Shown here in pieces: positions 6,600 through 15,700 of a stretch of 64,000 nucleotides of DNA (position 1 is the first letter of the stretch; the number at the start of each line of letters is the position of its first letter). The stretch is from IMG/VR virus record IMGVR_UViG_3300010352_001543. One strand, given 5' to 3'. The DNA is from a virus. Lineage: Duplodnaviria; Caudoviricetes. The notes under the pieces were generated by a model. It was not told the origin of the DNA. It did no database searches and saw only the letters and a list, made by a program, of their open reading frames with translations. The position numbers were made by a program, and so were the translations under genes.

Positions 6600-7127
6600 C
6601 TATGAATTTTGTTTCTTTTTACTTCTACCGGCATACTCTTCGATATCCTCTTTAATAGTGTCATAGAAATCTTCTATGTGATCGAAAACAGCAATCAGAT
6701 GTTTACATAAAGCACCTTCTAAGTTTGGATTTTTGATTTCAGGTGGCCTGTCTTCCGGGCGGATTCCATAATCATCAACATCCGCCATATATTGGTAGCC
6801 ATGAAATAAAAAGTCCTGGCAAGAACAATAAACATGAATATCACCAGCCTGTATAGCGGTTTCTATTTTTTCTTTGGTATCATATTTCTTCGATCTACTT
6901 ATTTGCCGGTAGTCAGGAATTCTAACCATTATGTTATGTTCTGTTCCGCTACCATTTGGATCAGTCGCGATAAATTTCAGTGTTTTTATTCTATCGTTTT
7001 TTACACGATGAGCCATTCCAGTATACCTAACTTGGATTTCCTTTGCTCTTGTTTTGCGTTTGCCTTCTGAATTTTTGATTAACTCATGTAGCATTCGCTC
7101 ATCTAATATGTTTGAAAGTATTTTCAT
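6600..7127 (-). CDS. SWIM zinc-finger protein
   Basis: VYCSCQDF...LCKHLIAV. Confidence 0.75.
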   Translation of the reverse strand: MKILSNILDERMLHELIKNSEGKRKTRAKEIQVRYTGMAHRVKNDRIKTLKFIATDPNGSGTEHNIMVRIPDYRQISRSKKYDTKEKIETAIQAGDIHVYCSCQDFLFHGYQYMADVDDYGIRPEDRPPEIKNPNLEGALCKHLIAVFDHIEDFYDTIKEDIEEYAGRSKKKQNS

Positions 7128-7130
7128 ATA

Positions 7131-7973
7131 TTATATATTTAAGTCCGGTTCCGGAAGAAATTGTAAGTCCAGCGCATTTTTAAAATCTTCAAGTATCTGT
7201 TCTTTAAGGCCACCGAACAAATTAAATTTTGGATTATCCAAAACAGCCAACAGCGATTCATATGTTTTAGCATCTTCTATAGTAAAAGTTGGCCCAAGAA
7301 TTATATGAACCAATTCCTCTGGGTCATTAGTGATTATCTCTAAAACTGTTTTGGATGCTGTTTTTCTTATCTGTCCTTTTTTACCAACATATGAATATTT
7401 GGTTTTTTTCAATCCTTTGGAAAGGTCCAGCGCATATCGATCCATCTCTTTTATTTCACCATCTTTGTTATACGCTATAGAAAAAATAAAATTTCTCGCT
7501 ATGGCAATCAAAAGAATATTTCTATAGTAACTTTTGTACTTCGATTCATTTATTCTGTAGTCCGGAGAATAGCTTGCAAATTTTGTCCATTCGATTGAGT
7601 CGGTTAACATCAAATCCACTTGAACAAATTCCTTTTTCGTATAAGGAATAGGAAAAGCAATTGAAACTATATTGAAACCAATTGTCAGTTTCACTTCAAG
7701 ATCAAAAGCATTTTCTAATGCTTCTTTCAAAACATTCAAAACATCTTCATACTTACAATTCAGTACATTACAAAGTGCTTGTTTGTCCACCGCTATGTCA
7801 AGGTCTCCTGAAAGGTCATCAATTCCTGGTTTCTTTCCGGCAGAACCTACTAAAGCGTATTGATTTTTGTTTAGCCCCATAACAAAGAAAAATTGACTTA
7901 CTACAGCATAGTAGGTTTTATCAACTTCGTATTGTTTTATTGGTCGAGTGTATTCAAAAAGATTCCCACCCAT
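7131..7973 (-). CDS. Pol-beta-superfamily nucleotidyltransferase
   Basis: GSAGKK...SGDLDIAV and VQVDLM motifs. Confidence 0.75.
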   Translation of the reverse strand: MGGNLFEYTRPIKQYEVDKTYYAVVSQFFFVMGLNKNQYALVGSAGKKPGIDDLSGDLDIAVDKQALCNVLNCKYEDVLNVLKEALENAFDLEVKLTIGFNIVSIAFPIPYTKKEFVQVDLMLTDSIEWTKFASYSPDYRINESKYKSYYRNILLIAIARNFIFSIAYNKDGEIKEMDRYALDLSKGLKKTKYSYVGKKGQIRKTASKTVLEIITNDPEELVHIILGPTFTIEDAKTYESLLAVLDNPKFNLFGGLKEQILEDFKNALDLQFLPEPDLNI

Positions 7974-8139
7974 TTCTTGTTCCTATTAATTGTTAGACAT
8001 GTTCATATTTCTGTTTTGCTTTGTTGTTATATGGATTTCGATACTCATTTAACCTTACAATAGCAGAAATTATCAAAAATCTCATATAAGCGATTTATGA
8101 GATCATTTTATAGACGAATACATTTAAAAATTATTGTTT

Positions 8140-9066
8140 TTATTTTACAAATACTTTGCCACTTACATGACAAACTGTCCGGACATATTCCTCTGTGAAA
8201 TCTTCTTCATTGTCAGCGCAGTAGTAATTTTTCTTCACTGAAATTGGACCATCTTCTAATGTTTCTAAATAGTTTCCAACACAATAAAAACTTCCATCTA
8301 TCTTTTCGGTTACACCTTTTAAACTTGTTAATTTGTTATTATAACAAGCATAATCACCATCAACAAACAGTGGACCATTCAATATTTCTGTTAATTGATT
8401 ATCTCCGCAATTAAATTCTCCTTTAACTTGTCGCGGAAAATTAGTGGAATATTTTAGATTGTTTTCGCTACAATTGAAATCTCCAGAAATGTAACCAAAT
8501 TGAATAGGTAATGTATCTTCATAGTATCTTTTAATCTTAACATCGCCATGAACATGACAAACACCATTGGTTATCTCAAAAGTTCCTTTAACCCAAGATT
8601 TTATCAATTTAGTTAATGTAACATCTGCTGGTATAAATATCTTAGAAGGGTCTAAATGGTTACTTTTTAAAATCTCTTTTACTCTGCTTGATACATCCCA
8701 GTTGGTATTATCATATCTATATCTACTTTTAGACCAACCATTAGACCCATTAGCATACGCTTTAAACATCCCATTAGCAAAAACAAAAACAGCATAAAAA
8801 TCTGTTATTATTTTTTCTTCTTCTCTATCTACATAATTATTCACTACAATATAGTACTCGGTAGTTTCTAATTGTAAAGGTGAGCTATCTAAATTATAAT
8901 CTTTGAATAAACCACCGAATGTTGTTTTATTATCTATCAAAAATTGTCGAGCTTCGTCTTGTGATGTTGGATGAAAAATAAGCAAAGTGTTAGATTTATA
9001 CACTATTGGAAGATTATTTTTAGTTACAATTAACTCTTCATTTATTATAGTTGAAATAGTTTTCAT
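8140..9066 (-). CDS. leucine-rich-repeat-like protein
   Basis: repeated GxFxCxxNxLxxLxxxP units at the C-terminus; leader MKTISTIINEE. Confidence 0.7.
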   Translation of the reverse strand: MKTISTIINEELIVTKNNLPIVYKSNTLLIFHPTSQDEARQFLIDNKTTFGGLFKDYNLDSSPLQLETTEYYIVVNNYVDREEEKIITDFYAVFVFANGMFKAYANGSNGWSKSRYRYDNTNWDVSSRVKEILKSNHLDPSKIFIPADVTLTKLIKSWVKGTFEITNGVCHVHGDVKIKRYYEDTLPIQFGYISGDFNCSENNLKYSTNFPRQVKGEFNCGDNQLTEILNGPLFVDGDYACYNNKLTSLKGVTEKIDGSFYCVGNYLETLEDGPISVKKNYYCADNEEDFTEEYVRTVCHVSGKVFVK

Positions 9067-9092
9067 TTGTTTAATTTTTATAGTATATATTT

Positions 9093-9182
9093 TTAATTAC
9101 AATGACCTGTGGTTCCGCCGCAATGTCCGCTCATTATTGTTTCGATAATTTTCGAAATTTTTCTTAATAATTTGGTGTACAT
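9093..9182 (-). CDS. 29-aa peptide MYTKLLRKISKIIETIMSGHCGGTTGHCN, candidate radical-SAM substrate (not in ORF track)
   Basis: ATG 2 nt after the rSAM stop; tandem GHC motifs. Confidence 0.6.
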   Translation of the reverse strand: MYTKLLRKISKIIETIMSGHCGGTTGHCN

Positions 9183-9184
9183 TT

Positions 9185-10045
9185 TCATCTCCATTGATTA
9201 GTTAAATTGCCATTTTCATAAATAACTCCATATTTATTTTGTCCTGGTCTGCTTAATAATTTGCTTACTACCTTAACACCATCCATAAACGATGCTTTTA
9301 AAGTTTCTTCACATAGAAAACAAGAACGTTTCAAAAGTAGCGGAGTTCTTAAACCTGGTATAATTTTGGTAGTGTCCAAAAAAGACTGACAACCATGATA
9401 AAAAGGTGAGCCTAAATCTATTCCGAATGTCTTTTCAAATGAAACGAAATGATTCTTACCGTGTTGAATTTCAGAAAGTTTAATCTCATTAAATCCCATT
9501 TTATCGTAATGTAACAAGCAATTAGTTATATCCTCTTTTGTATATAAGTGAGGTTTTACTATATTCAAATTGATTCTTATTTTTTCCTTGTTGGGTAATG
9601 AATCGTAAAATTTTTGCCTATCATATTTTGATTTTACTTTCCGAATGTCATCCGCTACATCTTCTTTGTAATGTTGAACGGAAAGATTGATTCCATCTAA
9701 ATTTTCCATTAGTTCAACAAATAAATCGAACCTGTCTTTACATATTTTCGGAACGGCCGTAGTGACATAAATTTTAAGGTTGGTTTTTTCCTTGATTTGT
9801 TTTACACAGTCCAGCAATTCAGGTAAATACAAACAAGGTTCTCCTCCTAAAAATAAGACATCATCATATCCGGATTGATTTTCAACTATTGTCTTTACGA
9901 TTGCACTTACATCCGGTTTATAAATACCTAAACCATCGTATTTCAGATCAATGCAATGATCACATCTATTGTCACAAGCGCTGGTGAAATGCACATCGAA
10001 AGAGTTGTACAAACCATCACAACAATTTTTCTGTAATTTTTTCAT
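9185..10045 (-). CDS. radical SAM protein
   Basis: CDNRCDHC (CxxxCxxC), LGGEP; extra Cys at NCCD, HGC, SCFLC. Confidence 0.9.
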   Translation of the reverse strand: MKKLQKNCCDGLYNSFDVHFTSACDNRCDHCIDLKYDGLGIYKPDVSAIVKTIVENQSGYDDVLFLGGEPCLYLPELLDCVKQIKEKTNLKIYVTTAVPKICKDRFDLFVELMENLDGINLSVQHYKEDVADDIRKVKSKYDRQKFYDSLPNKEKIRINLNIVKPHLYTKEDITNCLLHYDKMGFNEIKLSEIQHGKNHFVSFEKTFGIDLGSPFYHGCQSFLDTTKIIPGLRTPLLLKRSCFLCEETLKASFMDGVKVVSKLLSRPGQNKYGVIYENGNLTNQWR

Positions 10046-11283
10046 CGTTGGACCATGAAACTTTTGAATTCATTACCTATATGAACAAAATATGAACCGT
10101 TAGGTAAATCTGAAATATCTTCATCTTTATTTATATCAATTTGCTTAACCTCTTCTCCATAAATATTGAATATCGGAACCTTCAAATTTTCAAATTCATT
10201 AGTAAATATTGTTATTTTGTCAATTGCTGGGTTTGGAAATATCTCCGCTCTATCTTTTATTATATGATTCACGCACATACGAATGTTGAAGTCTGATAAT
10301 TTAGCCCGGAACATCCCTGAAGGAGAGCCAAACGCATAAACATAGTCTCCATTAATAATCAAATTTTTAATATTGATATTACTCATTCCTTTGGTTTGTA
10401 TCCAAGTATAACCCTTATTTCCGGTTGCCCAAACACCAGTTCCCATTGTAGCAACAAATAATCTATTTTCTGAATCTGTTACTATTGATGATATGTATTT
10501 AAGTTTAATATTTTTGTTGAGATAATTAAATGTTTTGCCGTTATCTATACTCGAGAACACCTTTCCTAACCTCGTACCCAAATATAGTATAGAATCCGAT
10601 AAATTTGTTGACCTTATACCATCTGCCAATTTTATACCATCGACTGATCGTAATTTTAGTAAATCCCAACTAGATTGAATGCTTTTCGAATAATATAAAT
10701 ATACTTCGTTTGAAGGTCCTTCGCTTGCTGGTAAATTCATATAGACGCCGTTTTTAGTCATTGTTATCGTTTCGATATCTAATGGAAGATTATCATCGGA
10801 ATACATCCAAACCCATTTATCACCATCAGTAAGACATTTAGAATATACCTGAGTGCCATTAGATAAACCTTCTAACAATATAACTACGTTGATGTCATCA
10901 ACGGCTATTGAAGAAATTCTCCAATGCAATAGTTCTTTATTAGAAGAACACCATTTTAAATTTTCCCAGCTACCGCCTAAATTAGTCGATACCCATAACT
11001 TAGTTGTGTCACCAGTTGTAGCAACAAATAAATTATTTTTATATACTTTTATTGAACTTACTGAATGATTGAAAGATTCAATTATTTTTCGATTCCAAGT
11101 TTTCCCATCATCAGAGGAAACAAACAGTCCTGTTTTTGTTCCGATAACAAGATTGTTATCTATAGAGGCCATACACCTAATTTCCGTTTTTGATATCTCG
11201 TTGTTTAGTATTTCCCATTGAGCGTTTGCTGTTGATACACAGACACAAATAATAGCGAATAGCAAAGTTGTTAATTTTTTCAA
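10042..11283 (-). CDS. secreted BNR/Asp-box beta-propeller protein with T9SS C-terminal sorting domain
   Basis: signal peptide; SxDxGxTW boxes; IFPNPA...DISDLPNGSYFV...KSF. Confidence 0.8.
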   Translation of the reverse strand: MKKLTTLLFAIICVCVSTANAQWEILNNEISKTEIRCMASIDNNLVIGTKTGLFVSSDDGKTWNRKIIESFNHSVSSIKVYKNNLFVATTGDTTKLWVSTNLGGSWENLKWCSSNKELLHWRISSIAVDDINVVILLEGLSNGTQVYSKCLTDGDKWVWMYSDDNLPLDIETITMTKNGVYMNLPASEGPSNEVYLYYSKSIQSSWDLLKLRSVDGIKLADGIRSTNLSDSILYLGTRLGKVFSSIDNGKTFNYLNKNIKLKYISSIVTDSENRLFVATMGTGVWATGNKGYTWIQTKGMSNINIKNLIINGDYVYAFGSPSGMFRAKLSDFNIRMCVNHIIKDRAEIFPNPAIDKITIFTNEFENLKVPIFNIYGEEVKQIDINKDEDISDLPNGSYFVHIGNEFKSFMVQR

Positions 11284-11294
11284 TTTGATGTTCC

Positions 11295-12734
11295 TTAAAT
11301 AATAAATTTATAAGCAATATATTTTCCGTCTTGAAGCGTATAAAAAATATACATTCCGTGGACCAAATTTTTCCTAATTAGTATGTCTATTGGTGTCCAT
11401 GAATGAAATCCCGAATCCAATAATTCTCCATTCATTGAAAAACACCACCAGGTTGTTTCGGATGTTTCGTTTTGTCTTAATTCAAGCGGAAGCACTACAT
11501 AAACACCACCATCCACGATCTCGGCAAATATGCTTTTTGTTTTTGAGAAAGTTGTTTCGTCCTTAACAGTTTGCGTTACTCCGTTGTTATAGATAAGTTT
11601 TAAATTTATGCTATCTTTTCTAATTTTTGATATATCTATTTTTAATTTTTCGTTCTCTTTTTTTAGTTCTAAGTTAATAACGTTTAAACTGTCATTTTTA
11701 TCAGATAAATACTCATTTAAGGAATCCTGTTCATTGTATTTTTCTTTTAACTCGTTTAATCTCGCTAAGGTCCGTTCACAACTATCCCTGAAAATTATTC
11801 CTTCTTTTATTGCAACTTCACAAGGATTACCAACTGTGAATTTGGCCATCTGAACAATTCGGAAATTTCCGTCATCAACAACACAATCTATATTATATTC
11901 ACCATTTTTATTGAATTTAACAGTAGCAGATTTTCCATCAAAGTAGTTGAAATCATTTACCAAAGCATTATCGAAATACGTGACAATTTTTACATATTTA
12001 AAATTGGAAGATTTCTCATATTCAATTATTTCATTGGTCCCGATTTCTCTTTGTCCCCACTTATTCAAGACTTTGAGAAAAACCTCTTTTTCTTTATATG
12101 GTATCGTTGGAGTTTCACATACCACTTGAACCGGATTATCATAATATAATTGGAAAATTGCAGGATTTTTGATGTTTCCATTACTAAGTGGCATTGTCAT
12201 AACGGATTTGTTTTCCGGGATGGTATATGTTTCCCAACGTCTCCATGAACTTCCATTATCGATTGAATATCTAAGTGTCATTTCATCCGGAGCTTCTGAT
12301 GGGTCAAATTTGACATAAAATTGATGTTCTGAATTATTGAAAATTGTGTCAGGGTATGAGGCAAATGAAAACTTATCTGAGTATTTACAAACTACGCTAA
12401 ATGTATTACTATTAACCCATTCGTTATCAATCTTACAAAAAATTCCAATTTTTGTAACTCCTGTCTCTTTTACTTTGAATGTAAATTGAACTGGGTTGTT
12501 TATCCATACGGTAGGTTCTGTTAAATTTTTCCAAGTTGTTCCGTTATTCACCGAGTAAGCAAAATAATACATGGAACTTTTTGAAGGTACATCATTTTGA
12601 TATTCGATTGTGTAACTTCTGCCAAAAAAACATTCGGTAGGAGTTGTAATAAATTCACCAGCTTTGACAGGTTTTGTGCATGCTACTATTAATGCTATAA
12701 TTGCAAAAATCAACATCATTAATAATTTTTTCAT
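11295..12734 (-). CDS. secreted protein with coiled coil and T9SS-CTD-like end (paralog of 47516..48910)
   Basis: signal peptide; SxxNGxTW boxes; C-terminal GMYIF...YKFII. Confidence 0.6.
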   Translation of the reverse strand: MKKLLMMLIFAIIALIVACTKPVKAGEFITTPTECFFGRSYTIEYQNDVPSKSSMYYFAYSVNNGTTWKNLTEPTVWINNPVQFTFKVKETGVTKIGIFCKIDNEWVNSNTFSVVCKYSDKFSFASYPDTIFNNSEHQFYVKFDPSEAPDEMTLRYSIDNGSSWRRWETYTIPENKSVMTMPLSNGNIKNPAIFQLYYDNPVQVVCETPTIPYKEKEVFLKVLNKWGQREIGTNEIIEYEKSSNFKYVKIVTYFDNALVNDFNYFDGKSATVKFNKNGEYNIDCVVDDGNFRIVQMAKFTVGNPCEVAIKEGIIFRDSCERTLARLNELKEKYNEQDSLNEYLSDKNDSLNVINLELKKENEKLKIDISKIRKDSINLKLIYNNGVTQTVKDETTFSKTKSIFAEIVDGGVYVVLPLELRQNETSETTWWCFSMNGELLDSGFHSWTPIDILIRKNLVHGMYIFYTLQDGKYIAYKFII

Positions 12735-15700
12735 TGATCCATCCCATCTAAAGTAGTTTGTAATTCATCGTATATTGATGGTTCGATGCGAAATCCATAA
12801 CGTTTATAAAATTCTGCTACTTTACCATAATCTGTTACAATAGTTGCTTGATGATCGTCATATAAAAGTGAAAAAACCAATTTTTTTCTATTTTTAAATT
12901 TTTCATCAAATGAATCTTTACTTATATTTTTTAAACCAATTTTCATATCAAATGATGCCCAATTACATATAGCATACAAATCTTTGTATTTAGTAATTTG
13001 TTTATGTAAATATGTAGGTGATTCTATCTTGACAGGACATCTCATTTTCAAAATATAATATCGAGTTCCTGCGATATCTAACCTTGGAGGAATTACTTCA
13101 GAGAACTGTATTATACGCATAATATTTGCTAAAAAATTGAAAAATTCCTCTATTTTTTCAATAGGTTCATTATTGTCTGGATAAGGTAATCTAAGTGTTA
13201 ATTCATCCATATTTACAATCTTGCCGTCTCTAATACCTTCATAATTATGTCTGAAAGAATAATCGTAATATTCTATTAAGTGAAGATAATCAATAGCTTC
13301 GGCTACTGTTGTTTTTTGTTTTAATGTAAACATTTTAATTTTCCTTGTTGTTTAAATTATAAATTTCTAACGCTTTTTTATTTGTATATGTTCCATCATC
13401 ATTCAAAATATATTCATCTGAATTTTTTAATTCATCTATGGTCAAAGTTTGGTATGACTTTGACCAAGTTCCATCACCAGGAACCCACGGCATCTTTACT
13501 TCTATCATAGTCTTTCCTTCTTTGGCAAGTATTGCGTTTTCTGCTTCAAAGTGACTCATTCCAGTAGTAGCGCATAACGTTTCAATATCATAATGATATT
13601 GTTCAAATTTAGGTGAATGAGAATTGTCTTCTGGATTGTAGGTGAAAACTACTCCACGATTTCGTTCTTCTATAGTAAAATTAGTTATGCCACTATTTAA
13701 ATATTGCCTGAATTTCATATGAACATCCAGACCAGATTCATAGTATATTGAAGTATTAATTATAATAGAAGCACATTCCCAATTATCTAATTCATAGTTT
13801 TCTGAATTTGCCCTTACACTTATAACTTTGTCATTCAAATGATTATTCAATATATCTTTGATAGTATTTGAATAATCTTTAATGCTATCTGATGATACCG
13901 GTGTTACAGTAGGATCTAATTCTTCTAATTCAGTATTAATATCCATACTAAATCCGACAGTGTTTTTAATTCTTTCTTTCATTTTTTTAATTTTTCTTAT
14001 ATTTTATAAATTTATTTCTCTTCCACAAATTTCTTCCAGTTCTTCATGGTATATCCATTTTTTGGCTATGAGTGATTCAATGCCCATATCATCAGTTGTT
14101 TTGTTGATAATAAAACCATCGTCACTATCGTCACCACAAACACAATAAATTGTCAGTTTCTTATCATCTGGCATTTCTTTACCATCCGGACCATATATCG
14201 AATTAAAATCATCTAAATGGTCATAACATAATCCAATAATAAGATCATTCTCTTTGTCTTTTTCGGTATATGGCATTACAAACATACTCCTTGTACATCT
14301 TCTATTTTTGTTATGATCCCTTTTCTTTTTTTGGTTTCTAAATAGGTGTTTAGTACAGAGGGAATATCTGTTATTGGTGAATCAGTGTAAAAATGACCAG
14401 TACTTTGTTTAACATTTCCAGTGCTTCCATCATCCATTTTTGCAATTGTATAATAATTTACTTTATAACTCATTTCATTATTCCATATTGTTTAAATCTA
14501 TTAAAACATCATCATCAGAATAACTATTTTCATATATAATATCAGTTATTCTTTTCATATATCGTTCTGTATCTGGTATCATCTGAACGTTACCACATTC
14601 AATTATAACCGCATCAATTTCTTCTTTTGGAGTACCTTGCTCTGTAGCAACTTTCTTAAATTCATCCAATAATATCATAGTATTTTCGATGGGTATGAAC
14701 TCAATTAACTTATGTTCGACACTTTTCCAATTGAATTTTACTAATTTTGTTACTTTTCTATAATCTTCCATTTTCTTAATCCTTATTTTTTAATTCTTTC
14801 ACATTTTTCACATTTATAATAACTATGACCATCTAAATAAACTTTACTAATAAGATAATAATCATGAATACAAAACGTTTGTTTAATTAATTTACGAAAC
14901 CACAATATTAAATCACCTATCATATTATATCTCCATTATACCAAAATAATTCTCCATTACTATCCGATAAATTAGATTTATTAGTGGTAACTGATTCATT
15001 TTCTTCTAATAAATAATCATCAACTTCTTTTGTATATTCATCCAACTTAACTATGGCTCCTTGATAAGAACATTCTATTTTTTCTGGAATAATTTCATTA
15101 TCCACCATATCATGAAAATAAGTTAATAAATTTCGAATACATCTCAATTCGATTAAATCTTTAAATTCCATATTGATTAATTTCCTATATAATCCCAAAA
15201 TTTTAATGTCCAAATTAATAACACAATTGCGGTAAATAAAGGTAATATAGATGATATAAATAATTTACGTTTATTTACTACGTAATTACTCCATACACCT
15301 TGTTTTACATCCATATCAACTAAAGAGATTATGGATAATGTTAACAAAATTGCGTAAATTGCAATACCTAAATTAGTCCATGTCAAGATTTCCATATTAT
15401 TTACTCTGTTTAATCCAAATATCATACATACTATTAAAATCTCTAAAAACTTCTCCAAAGAACAATCCACCATCTTCAAAATCTAAGGGTTGATTTCTTA
15501 TCTTAGCTGACTCAATAATACATTTTATAAATTCTACATAGTTTCTCGTTTCTTCACTTATGATGTGATAAAATGGTAATGGTGGAAGCGAAAATACATC
15601 GAGTTTATCATTAGGTAATATTGGTCGGTTTAATAATTCCGAAGAAGTTATCAATAGTTCCATTTTTTTAACAAAATCTTTTGTTACTGTAGTTAATTTA

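What the first reader, a model, noticed from the sequence alone, without database searches (positions are those of the whole stretch)
9093..10045. Radical SAM enzyme followed by an unannotated GHC-repeat peptide: candidate phage RiPP system
Seen: a 29-aa ORF (MYTKLLRKISKIIETIMS-GHCGGTTGHCN) starts 2 nt after the rSAM stop. It has an amphipathic leader-like half and a Gly-rich core with two GHC motifs. The rSAM has extra cysteines and overlaps (ATGA) the upstream T9SS-cargo gene. Established: rSAM maturases crosslink Cys/His in short adjacent precursors. Inference: a phage-made modified peptide; alternatively a detached metal-binding tail of the enzyme.
Basis: partly seen in the sequence, partly recalled or inferred. 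Interest (0 to 1): 0.76.

Follow-up and report, generated by a model that had tools for sequence, protein, structure and literature searches.

The report
Phage radical-SAM enzyme with Gly-His-Cys peptide
A giant phage carries a self-contained two-gene unit, a compact iron-sulfur "radical SAM" enzyme followed at once by a 29-residue peptide with two Gly-His-Cys motifs. The same pairing, split or fused, recurs beside almost every relative of the enzyme whose flanks could be read, so it is probably an undescribed virus-borne system for chemically modifying a peptide.

Summary
All features lie on the minus strand. A 286-aa radical SAM (rSAM) gene (9185-10045) is followed 2 nt after its TGA by a 29-aa ORF (9093-9182), which has a GGAG 6 nt upstream.

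- **Conservation.** All 46 loci whose enzyme is at least 49% identical carry the peptide. It has a conserved leader (M-[YFW]-T-[KR]-x-L-R-K), two invariant GHC motifs encoded by synonymous codons, and a Gly/Ser/Asp spacer of 2-13 residues.
- **No shared neighbour.** No other neighbouring gene is conserved across 54 loci.
- **Distant relatives.** At 34-38% identity (including Lak megaphages), most loci checked have GGC, SC, CH or YGCG tails in a neighbouring ORF. About a tenth of the family carries CH-motif tails fused to the enzyme's own C-terminus.
- **Enzyme.** It has three extra family-invariant cysteines (C9, C219, C242), a twitch-like C-terminal domain, no RRE and no SPASM motif.
- **Complex model.** The model supports binding (0.71 against 0.02 for the best control). 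The leader lies on helix 253-264 and the GHC core lies near C9 and K239.

My best reading (0.5) is a new RiPP-like enzyme-substrate pair that acts on cysteine. The main rival (0.33) is that the tail is a cluster-ligand or redox arm of an enzyme with another substrate. The scan has found this family before on other DNA. I found no paper describing it.

The parts
9185..10045 (-). Radical SAM enzyme, 286 aa: core barrel plus a twitch-like C-terminal domain; no RRE and no SPASM motif
   Evidence: Pfam PF04055 scores 44.2 bits against a cutoff of 29.5. No NCBIfam family reaches its cutoff. The AF2 model has pLDDT 95.3. The fold neighbours are tied: viperin Z 17.7, GDGT-MAS 17.5, SuiB 17.1, MoaA 16.8, CteB 16.0. 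951 homologues have E<=1e-3, and the best 120 are 70-81% identical.
9953..9976 (-). CX3CX2C motif (C24, C28, C31) that binds the SAM-cleaving [4Fe-4S] cluster
   Evidence: Read from the sequence. Invariant in 89 sequences, as is GGEP at residues 67-70.
10019..10021 (-). C9, within an N-x-C-D-G motif; a family-invariant extra cysteine and probable auxiliary-cluster ligand
   Evidence: Invariant in alignments A1, A3 and A5. Residues 7-9 touch the peptide's GHC in the complex model.
9320..9391 (-). C219 to C242: the twitch-like beta-hairpin, flanked by the two other family-invariant cysteines
   Evidence: C219 precedes strand 220-223 and C242 follows strand 236-239 in the model. These are the canonical twitch ligand positions described in PMC6231123. 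Both are invariant.
9254..9319 (-). Residues 243-264: a strand plus amphipathic helix, predicted to be the docking site for the peptide leader
   Evidence: This segment holds the lowest-error contacts in the complex model. It is present in enzymes with a separate peptide. In the clade with fused tails it is replaced by a Pro/basic-rich coil.
9189..9192 (-). GGAG, a Shine-Dalgarno-like motif 6 nt before the peptide ATG, lying inside the last rSAM codons (W285, R286)
   Evidence: Read from the sequence. GGAG, AGGA or GGATGG-like motifs lie upstream of all 26 peptide copies examined.
9129..9182 (-). Peptide leader, residues 1-18 of the 29-aa form, with conserved M-[YFW]-T-[KR]-x-L-R-K
   Evidence: Alignment A4: M and T are at least 90% conserved. 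Synonymous Thr, Lys and Arg codons are used. The leader contacts enzyme residues 243-263 in the model.
9093..9128 (-). Peptide core, GHC-x4-GHC-N, plus the stop codon
   Evidence: H, C, G, H and C are invariant in 27 distinct peptides. They are encoded by GGA/GGT/GGG/GGC, CAT/CAC and TGT/TGC. The spacer is 2-13 residues and rich in Gly, Ser and Asp.

Best explanation
This is a self-contained, phage-borne enzyme-substrate pair of the RiPP type.

Proposed mechanism:
1. The peptide's amphipathic leader docks on the strand and helix (residues 243-264) of the enzyme's twitch-like C-terminal domain.
2. Docking feeds the flexible Gly-rich core into the barrel, beside an auxiliary Fe-S cluster held by C9, C219 and C242, which leaves one iron open.
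3. A core cysteine thiolate binds that iron, as the substrate cysteine does in the sactisynthase CteB.
4. The 5'-deoxyadenosyl radical abstracts a hydrogen from a nearby core residue.
5. A sulfur-to-carbon crosslink, or another cysteine-centred change, results. Gly C-alpha is the most likely acceptor, because Gly-x-Cys is the only feature common to all tail types.

The two motifs joined by a loop of variable length would give a small hairpin macrocycle that displays two histidines.

Shown here: the pairing, protein-level selection on the peptide, the conserved extra cysteines, and a modelled interface that passes its controls.

Inferred: the auxiliary cluster, the chemistry, and the role in infection. 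The product could be released at lysis or act inside the cell, since no protease or exporter travels with the pair.
For: 1. The peptide follows the enzyme in 46 of 46 loci with enzymes at least 49% identical. This gives 32 distinct peptides from 37 IMG/VR loci, 6 MAG contigs and other metagenome contigs, on DNA of 23-56% GC.
2. Conservation is bipartite, as in RiPP precursors: a conserved leader, invariant GHC motifs and a hypervariable spacer. Synonymous codons occur at the invariant residues.
3. The number of targets varies, as in RiPP precursors. L027 has two tandem precursor genes. Seven loci have 58-62-aa forms with four HC motifs and an internal leader-like E-T-[LF]-Y-R-K. L058 has a 69-aa form with four CH motifs. 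Fused tails carry 2-7 Cys.
4. Most distant relatives checked keep a Gly/Cys tail in a neighbouring ORF. Lak phages have ORFs of 156-170 aa ending in two GGC motifs. L008 has an SC..SC..GGC tail. L011 has an upstream YGCG-repeat ORF.
5. Only the enzyme is shared among 54 loci; there is no conserved neighbour.
6. C9, C219 and C242 are invariant in 89 sequences. C219 and C242 lie at twitch ligand positions.
7. The complex model scores 0.71 with a best control of 0.02. That mark was reached by 58 of 80 solved complexes and 2 of 110 mismatched pairs. The three runs share at least 65% of their contacts, and the partner's pLDDT is at least 59. These counts hold only roughly, because my own alignments and riding ligands were used. 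The leader lies on residues 243-263. The core G-H-C and the last Cys lie on residues 7-9, 194 and 239.
8. The docking strand and helix are present where the peptide is separate and absent in the fused-tail clade.
9. RiPP maturases (SuiB, CteB, ChlB, SkfB, PqqE) are among the tied best fold matches.
10. Borosins give a precedent for RiPP precursors that are fused to their enzyme in some lineages and split in others (10.1101/2021.12.24.474128, PMC8429565).
Against: - No modification has been observed.
- The enzyme lacks the RRE and SPASM domains typical of peptide-modifying rSAM enzymes.
- No protease, exporter or immunity gene accompanies the pair.
- The enzyme is unusually conserved (64-81% identity between otherwise unrelated phages). 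That would also suit a fixed small-molecule substrate.
- Short-linker fused tails, such as P0251 found on at least 24 contigs, would make the enzyme single-turnover if the tail were its only substrate.
- Sequence and fold matches to viperin and MoaA, which act on nucleotides, are as good as those to the maturases.
- For two distant relatives no partner was found on the short contigs available: L059 (P0150) and L012 (P0132). The ORF after L060 (P0190) is cut by the contig end.
Confidence: 0.5

Rival explanations
1. The peptide, or the fused tail, is a working part of the enzyme and not its substrate. It would be a detachable arm whose Cys and His residues complete or ligate an auxiliary Fe-S or metal site (a split twitch domain). 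Alternatively, it could shuttle electrons, hydrogen atoms or sulfur to the active site. The real substrate would then be something else, for example a nucleotide, as in viperin and MoaA.
For: - About 10 of 80 full-length cluster representatives carry (G/S)CH motifs fused straight after the conserved G-W C-terminus. Linkers can be as short as about 10 residues and there is no leader. P0251 is seen on at least 24 contigs.
- At least two independent fusion or fission events appear on the tree.
- A canonical twitch domain has its last two Cys ligands after helix alpha2' (PMC6231123). This enzyme has no Cys after that helix, and the tail cysteines come exactly there.
- A Gly-rich spacer of free length suits two ligand 'knuckles' joined by a flexible loop.
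- The enzyme is highly conserved while the spacer is not.
- The best sequence matches in the PDB are viperin-like enzymes, at 2.6e-17 over the core only.
- From general knowledge: small Cys-rich metal proteins can serve rSAM-type enzymes as electron donors (Dph3/Kti11 with Dph1-Dph2), and flexible C-terminal Cys pairs shuttle reducing equivalents in class I ribonucleotide reductase.
Against: - The number of Cys motifs varies (2, 3, 4 or 7). Two tandem peptide genes sit beside one enzyme (L027), and some forms have internal repeats of leader-like motif plus two Cys motifs. A fixed ligand set would not be expected to vary this way.
- His is dispensable in the Lak, L008 and L011 types.
- Borosins show that fused precursors are compatible with a RiPP reading.
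- No candidate second substrate or pathway gene co-occurs with the pair.
Confidence: 0.33
2. The enzyme modifies its own tail or partner peptide once, to build a peptide-derived cofactor or crosslinked metal site. The modified peptide then stays on the enzyme and supports a second, unknown activity. This would be self-processing cofactor biogenesis.
For: This reading reconciles the fused forms, which suit a stoichiometric partner, with the substrate-like position of the core beside the putative auxiliary site and barrel residues Q194 and K239 in the model. From general knowledge, peptide-derived cofactors made with rSAM help exist (PQQ, mycofactocin, and the QhpC crosslinks made by QhpD).
Against: There is no direct evidence. 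Tandem and multi-core precursors fit a stoichiometric cofactor poorly. No second catalytic domain is present in the 286-aa protein.
Confidence: 0.1
3. The small ORF is an independent small protein, such as a metal-binding or regulatory peptide, that merely shares an operon with the enzyme. Alternatively it is not translated.
For: There are no expression data for this window. No family in NCBIfam or PHROGs matches the peptide.
Against: - Linkage is strict in 46 of 46 loci while every other neighbour changes.
- Fusions to the enzyme exist.
- The docking helix is correlated with the presence of a leader.
- The complex model passes its controls.
- Synonymous-codon evidence and Shine-Dalgarno-like motifs support translation.
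Confidence: 0.03

Closest known systems
Sactipeptide and ranthipeptide systems (CteB/CteA 'SCIFF', SkfB/SkfA, AlbA/SboA, PapB/PapA)
   Same: An rSAM enzyme sits next to a short precursor with a conserved leader and a Cys-bearing core. The C-terminal domain carries an auxiliary cluster. An open iron site that binds the substrate cysteine is documented for CteB (PMC6231123; PMC10177961). CteB and SkfB are among the top fold matches (Z 16.0 and 14.9).
   Different: - There is no RRE domain and no SPASM 7-Cys motif.
- Only two Cys lie in the C-terminal domain, plus one N-terminal Cys (C9).
- The leader is predicted to dock on the twitch helix and not on an RRE.
- The GHC motif is unknown in those classes.
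- No NCBIfam maturase or precursor model is matched above its cutoff.
- The system is carried by phages as a bare two-gene unit.
- The chemistry is untested.
Viperin / MoaA clade of radical SAM enzymes (nucleotide substrates)
   Same: These are the best sequence matches in the PDB (viperin-like, 2.6e-17 over core residues 17-190). They tie for the best fold matches (viperin Z 17.7, MoaA Z 16.8). MoaA has a twitch cluster with three Cys and an open iron that binds its substrate.
   Different: NCBIfam viperin_w_prok scores 34.1 bits against a cutoff of 180, and moaA scores 23.7 against 284. Viperin has no auxiliary cluster. Neither enzyme has an obligate Cys-peptide partner or tail.
Borosin RiPPs (fused OphMA type and split bacterial types)
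   Same: The same family occurs with the modified peptide either fused to the enzyme's C-terminus or encoded as a separate adjacent gene (10.1101/2021.12.24.474128, PMC8429565).
   Different: Borosin enzymes are SAM-dependent N-methyltransferases, not radical SAM enzymes, and there is no sequence relationship. This is an analogy of architecture only.
Phage CXXX-repeat and Cys-array rSAM systems noted earlier in this scan (e1-342313, e1-5322982)
   Same: Both are phage-borne rSAM enzymes beside Cys-repeat targets.
   Different: Those use SPASM-type maturases, sit among tail-fibre genes, and have targets that can form the tips of fibre proteins. Here the neighbours are not conserved, and no structural-protein link was seen in 54 loci. 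I did not test those systems myself.

Membership tests
Radical SAM superfamily (PF04055) | CX3CX2C cluster motif and a match to the Pfam model above its gathering score | tested here: met
   C24, C28 and C31 are present. PF04055 scores 44.2 bits against a cutoff of 29.5. The cysteine triad and GGEP at residues 67-70 are invariant in 89 sequences.
SPASM-domain rSAM maturases | C-terminal 7-Cys motif binding two auxiliary clusters | tested here: not met
   Only C219, C242 and C245 lie in the C-terminal 100 residues, and only two of these are family-invariant. All SPASM-type NCBIfam models score far below their cutoffs.
Twitch-domain rSAM enzymes | Beta-hairpin plus helix, with Cys ligands before and after the hairpin and after the helix, holding one auxiliary cluster | tested here: inconclusive
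   The hairpin (strands 220-223 and 236-239) and helix 253-264 are present, with C219 before and C242 after the hairpin. There is no Cys after the helix. NF033640 N_Twi_rSAM scores 13 bits against a cutoff of 170. Cluster binding is not testable here.
RRE-dependent RiPP maturases | N-terminal PqqD-like RiPP recognition element | tested here: not met
   The rSAM core begins at about residue 15. No PqqD or RRE hit appears in Pfam or NCBIfam. The model shows no extra N-terminal domain.
RiPP biosynthetic systems (general definition) | A genetically encoded precursor with leader and core next to its modifying enzyme | tested here: met
   Adjacent in 46 of 46 loci, with bipartite conservation.
RiPP biosynthetic systems (general definition) | Covalent post-translational modification of the core, and usually leader removal | not testable with these tools
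   This needs mass spectrometry of the co-expressed peptide. No protease gene is conserved nearby.
Sactipeptides / ranthipeptides | Cys sulfur to alpha-, beta- or gamma-carbon thioether crosslinks | not testable with these tools
   Inference only, from the invariant Cys and the putative open-site auxiliary cluster.
Viperin family (NF038283 / TIGR04278) | Match to the curated equivalog models | tested here: not met
   34.1 bits against a cutoff of 180, and 18.7 bits against 450.
Known rSAM-target peptide families in NCBIfam (SCIFF, ACGX, CXXX repeat, KxxxW and others) | Match of the peptide to a curated precursor model | tested here: not met
   No NCBIfam hit for the 33-aa ORF at E<=1, and none in PHROGs.

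The most novel reading that the evidence does not exclude
Phages of many host phyla make, with a minimal two-gene kit, a new class of radical-SAM-crosslinked His/Cys peptide with chemistry not yet described. One possibility is Cys-to-Gly or Cys-to-His links forming a histidine-displaying hairpin. The phage would use it during infection as an intracellular effector, metal binder or released signal. The enzyme would represent a new RRE-less way to recognise a leader, through the twitch-domain helix.
Probability: 0.3. Interest if true: 0.85.

Novelty: new variant of a known kind. Interest (0 to 1): 0.72.

Why it matters
Virus-encoded RiPP-like chemistry is almost unexplored, and my seven full-text searches found no description of this family.

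- **Distribution.** The unit is widespread. There are 951 enzyme homologues in metagenomes, on contigs of up to 321 kb. Hosts span 23-56% GC, and Lak megaphages carry a distant form.
- **Tractability.** The unit is minimal (about 950 bp) and therefore easy to test.
- **If it modifies the peptide.** It would define a new maturase type without RRE or SPASM, and probably new cysteine chemistry. It would also raise the question of what large phages do with such peptides.
- **If the peptide is a cofactor arm.** It would be the first split twitch domain, and the enzyme would be an orphan phage rSAM with an unknown, highly conserved substrate.

Tried and rejected
- **No whole genome.** None is held for this window.
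- **Search failures.** The search for related loci with the diverse alignment A1 failed because no stretch was conserved enough. I repeated it with A2.
- **Peptide family scans.** No hit in NCBIfam or PHROGs.
- **Conserved neighbours.** The second and third largest blastp clusters among 54 loci were antisense ORFs inside the rSAM gene, not real neighbours. A DNA methylase follows the peptide in 4 loci and is incidental.
- **Promoters and terminators.** The scan of 7900-13500 gave fewer promoter-like sites than shuffles and no terminator around the pair. The pair sits inside a long co-directional gene run.
- **Fold searches.** They could not place the enzyme in one family. Viperin, GDGT-MAS, SuiB, MoaA, PFL-AE and CteB are tied within about 1.7 Z units.
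- **AF2 of the fused form P0251.** The tail (residues 281-297) has pLDDT below 50. The model holds no cluster, so this says nothing about where the tail goes.
- **Distant relatives without a partner.** For L059 (P0150) and L012 (P0132) no partner peptide was seen on contigs of 2.2 kb and 1.0 kb. For L060 (P0190) the downstream ORF is cut by the contig end.
- **Rejected readings.**
  - A link between the cassette and the T9SS cargo genes: not conserved.
  - A glycyl-radical activase, as JGI names some homologues: no glycyl-radical partner, and PFL-AE matches only the core.
  - A NiSOD-like Ni-hook: the Cys spacing varies from 2 to 13 residues.
Full report
**1. What is in the window**

All genes in this stretch run on the minus strand.

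- A 286-aa ORF (9185-10045) carries a CX3CX2C motif (C24, C28, C31). It matches Pfam Radical_SAM at 44.2 bits, against a cutoff of 29.5.
- Its ATG overlaps, as ATGA, the stop of the upstream gene (10042-11283). That gene has a T9SS sorting domain and BNR/sortilin-like repeats.
- Its TGA (9187-9185) is followed by two bases and then the ATG (9182) of a 29-aa ORF ending at 9093.
- In-frame ATGs at 9188 and 9194 would give 31 or 33 aa.
- A GGAG (9192-9189) lies 6 nt before the 9182 ATG.
- The ORF has a basic amphipathic first half and ends GHC-x4-GHC-N.
- It is the only such ORF in the window, and none arose in 200 shuffles.

**2. The pairing is conserved; nothing else is**

The enzyme has 951 homologues at E<=1e-3 in the metagenome protein collection. 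The best 120 are 70-81% identical and lie on contigs of up to 321 kb.

I read the DNA after the gene in 37 IMG/VR loci, 6 MAG contigs and several other metagenome contigs.

- In all 46 loci with an enzyme at least 49% identical, a small ORF follows at once. This gives 32 distinct peptides.
- In the alignment of 27 peptides, the two H-C pairs and the second Gly are invariant. The first Gly and the leader's M and T are at least 90% conserved. The leader reads M-[YFW]-T-[KR]-x-L-R-K.
- The spacer between the motifs is 2-13 residues of mostly Gly, Ser and Asp.
- The invariant residues use all synonymous codons (four Gly codons, both His codons, both Cys codons). Every copy has a GGAG/AGGA-like motif upstream. 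Selection therefore acts on the protein.
- By contrast, no ORF of 70 aa or more within about 2.5-4 kb is shared among 54 loci, apart from near-identical phages.
- GC content across loci ranges from 23 to 56%.
- The unit is an autonomous two-gene cassette. The T9SS neighbour here is incidental.

**3. Variants that bear on function**

- L027 has two tandem peptide genes.
- Seven loci have one ORF of 58-62 aa with four HC motifs and an internal leader-like E-T-[LF]-Y-R-K.
- L025 and the protein fragment P0243 fuse enzyme and peptide by a frame change.
- P0125 (346 aa) is a clean fusion through a leader-like linker.

Further out in the family (34-38% identity):

- L008, a 695-aa double rSAM, is followed by a 27-aa peptide with a related leader and an SC..SC..GGC tail.
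- L058 is followed by a 69-aa peptide with four [GS]CH motifs and an internal T-K-I-R-R.
- L011 has an upstream ORF of YGCG repeats ending in Cys.
- In 15 Lak megaphage genomes the enzyme is 34% identical. In the two read (Lak-B1, Lak-A1), the next ORF (156-170 aa) ends in two GGC motifs, the last at the C-terminus.

About 10 of 80 full-length 50%-identity cluster representatives carry 2-4 (in one case 7) Cys, mostly as (G/S)CH motifs, fused directly after the conserved G-W C-terminus and with no leader. One of them, P0251, is on at least 24 contigs, so the fusion is real.

On a quick maximum-likelihood tree, the short-linker fused forms fall mostly in one clade (SH-aLRT 100). P0125 lies inside the split clade. 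This means at least two fusion or fission events. The tree is midpoint-rooted and is the quick tree, because the careful search did not finish.

For two distant relatives on very short contigs I found no partner. A third was cut by the contig end.

**4. The enzyme**

- No curated family claims it. The best NCBIfam hit is prokaryotic viperin at 34 bits, against a cutoff of 180.
- A profile of 89 members matches viperin-like PDB chains at 2.6e-17, but only over the core.
- The AF2 model is confident (pLDDT 95.3).
- Its fold neighbours are tied: viperin Z 17.7, GDGT-MAS 17.5, SuiB 17.1, MoaA 16.8, PFL-AE 16.2, CteB 16.0, ChlB 15.5 (Foldseek agrees).
- There is no RRE and no SPASM motif.
- Besides the SAM-cluster triad, three cysteines are invariant in 89 sequences: C9, C219 and C242.
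- In the model, C219 precedes strand 220-223, C242 follows strand 236-239, and helix 253-264 comes next.
- That is the twitch layout described in PMC6231123: one Cys ligand before the hairpin, one after it, and two after the helix. The same paper records that MoaA and CteB keep one iron open for the substrate, which in CteB is a substrate cysteine.
- This enzyme has no Cys after the helix. That is exactly where the fused tails, or the separate peptide, bring theirs.

**5. Do they bind?**

I folded the enzyme (alignment A3) with the 33-aa ORF (alignment A4), two 4Fe-4S clusters and SAM.

- The score was 0.71 (three runs: 0.71, 0.72, 0.71), and the best of three controls was 0.02.
- That mark was reached by 58 of 80 solved complexes and 2 of 110 mismatched pairs.
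- The runs share at least 65% of their contacts, and the partner's pLDDT is at least 59.
- The counts hold only roughly, because my own alignments and riding ligands were used. The model supports binding; it does not show it.
- The leader (Y, T, L, R, I, S, I, I, E at positions 6-18 of the 33-aa form) lies on enzyme residues 243-263.
- G23-H24-C25 and C32 touch N7-C8-C9, Q194, K239, 272 and 284.

An independent check agrees. Enzymes with a separate peptide keep the segment C-F-x-x-E...K-A-S..D..K (strand plus helix) after C242. In the fused-tail clade, which has no leader, that segment is replaced by a Pro/basic-rich coil. The P0251 model shows no helix there.

**6. What it most likely does**

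Two readings survive.

(A) Substrate. The leader docks on the twitch helix. The Gly-rich core enters the barrel next to an auxiliary cluster held by C9, C219 and C242. A core cysteine binds the open iron, and radical chemistry crosslinks or otherwise alters the core.
- In favour: the RiPP-like leader/core conservation pattern; duplicated and multi-core precursors; the variable number of Cys motifs; and the CteB precedent.
- Gly-x-Cys is the only feature common to all tail types, so Cys sulfur to Gly C-alpha is my first guess. This is inference only.
- Fused forms have a precedent in borosins, which exist both fused and split.

(B) Working part. The tail supplies cluster or metal ligands, or acts as a redox or sulfur arm, and the enzyme acts on something else.
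- In favour: the short-linker fusions; the position of the tail where twitch domains keep their last two ligands; the very high conservation of the enzyme; and the viperin/MoaA likeness.

I put A at 0.5, B at 0.33, a hybrid (self-made peptide cofactor) at 0.1, and an unrelated or untranslated ORF at 0.03.

The role in infection is unknown. No protease, exporter or immunity gene travels with the pair. A product would therefore act inside the cell or be freed at lysis.

**7. Novelty**

Seven full-text searches found no description of this family or of a GHC-type rSAM target. The peptide matches no curated model.

The scan itself has met the family before on other DNA (e1-5468706, e1-4111224, e1-5468698, e1-3506680, e1-3418501). 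Those reports read it as enzyme plus substrate.

My independent tests agree on the pairing. They add three things: the fused-tail clade, the correlated loss of the docking helix, and the twitch-ligand argument. Together these keep the 'part of the enzyme' rival seriously alive.

I class it as a new variant of a known kind: an rSAM enzyme with a Cys-peptide partner.

Noticed in passing
window 10042-11283 and 11295-12734 (minus strand): Two adjacent phage genes look like secreted host-type cargo. The first has a Por_Secre_tail T9SS sorting domain (6.9e-11) and sortilin/BNR repeats. The second has BNR and reelin-subrepeat-like hits. They point to a Bacteroidota host. They are not linked to the rSAM cassette in other phages.
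   Followed up: partly
window 8140-9066 (minus strand): The 308-aa gene just downstream of the peptide has no Pfam, NCBIfam or PHROG hit. Its C-terminal half is a run of short repeats of the form [FY]-x-C-x-x-N-x-L, which looks like a leucine-rich repeat.
   Followed up: no
window 6600-7127 (minus strand): A 175-aa protein with a SWIM zinc-finger hit (9.2e-05). It also matches phrog_4315 (6e-14) and a 'tail protein' phrog (8.6e-11).
   Followed up: no
L046:2501-2953: A decayed copy of the cassette. The rSAM match stops at about residue 126 and then runs in frame into a leader-plus-GHC peptide, apparently through an internal deletion.
   Followed up: no
L008:67-2260: A 695-aa protein (P0170) with two Radical_SAM stretches. 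Its C-terminal half belongs to this family. It is followed by a 27-aa peptide with an SC..SC..GGC tail and no His.
   Followed up: partly
L011:20-2492: In a 38%-identical relative the Cys-bearing ORF lies upstream and consists of YGCG repeats. A microbial PARG (poly-ADP-ribose glycohydrolase) gene lies about 700 nt downstream.
   Followed up: partly
L061:2501-5894: The fused-tail enzyme P0251 is followed by an RlaP-family nucleotidyltransferase-like gene, a dCMP deaminase and a second, larger radical SAM gene. This nucleotide-metabolism setting may bear on the rival reading.
   Followed up: no
L056 and L057 (Prevotella phages Lak-B1, Lak-A1): All 15 Lak megaphage genomes in the phage collection carry a 34%-identical enzyme. 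In the two genomes read, the next ORF (156-170 aa) ends in two GGC motifs. The GenBank records are unannotated.
   Followed up: partly
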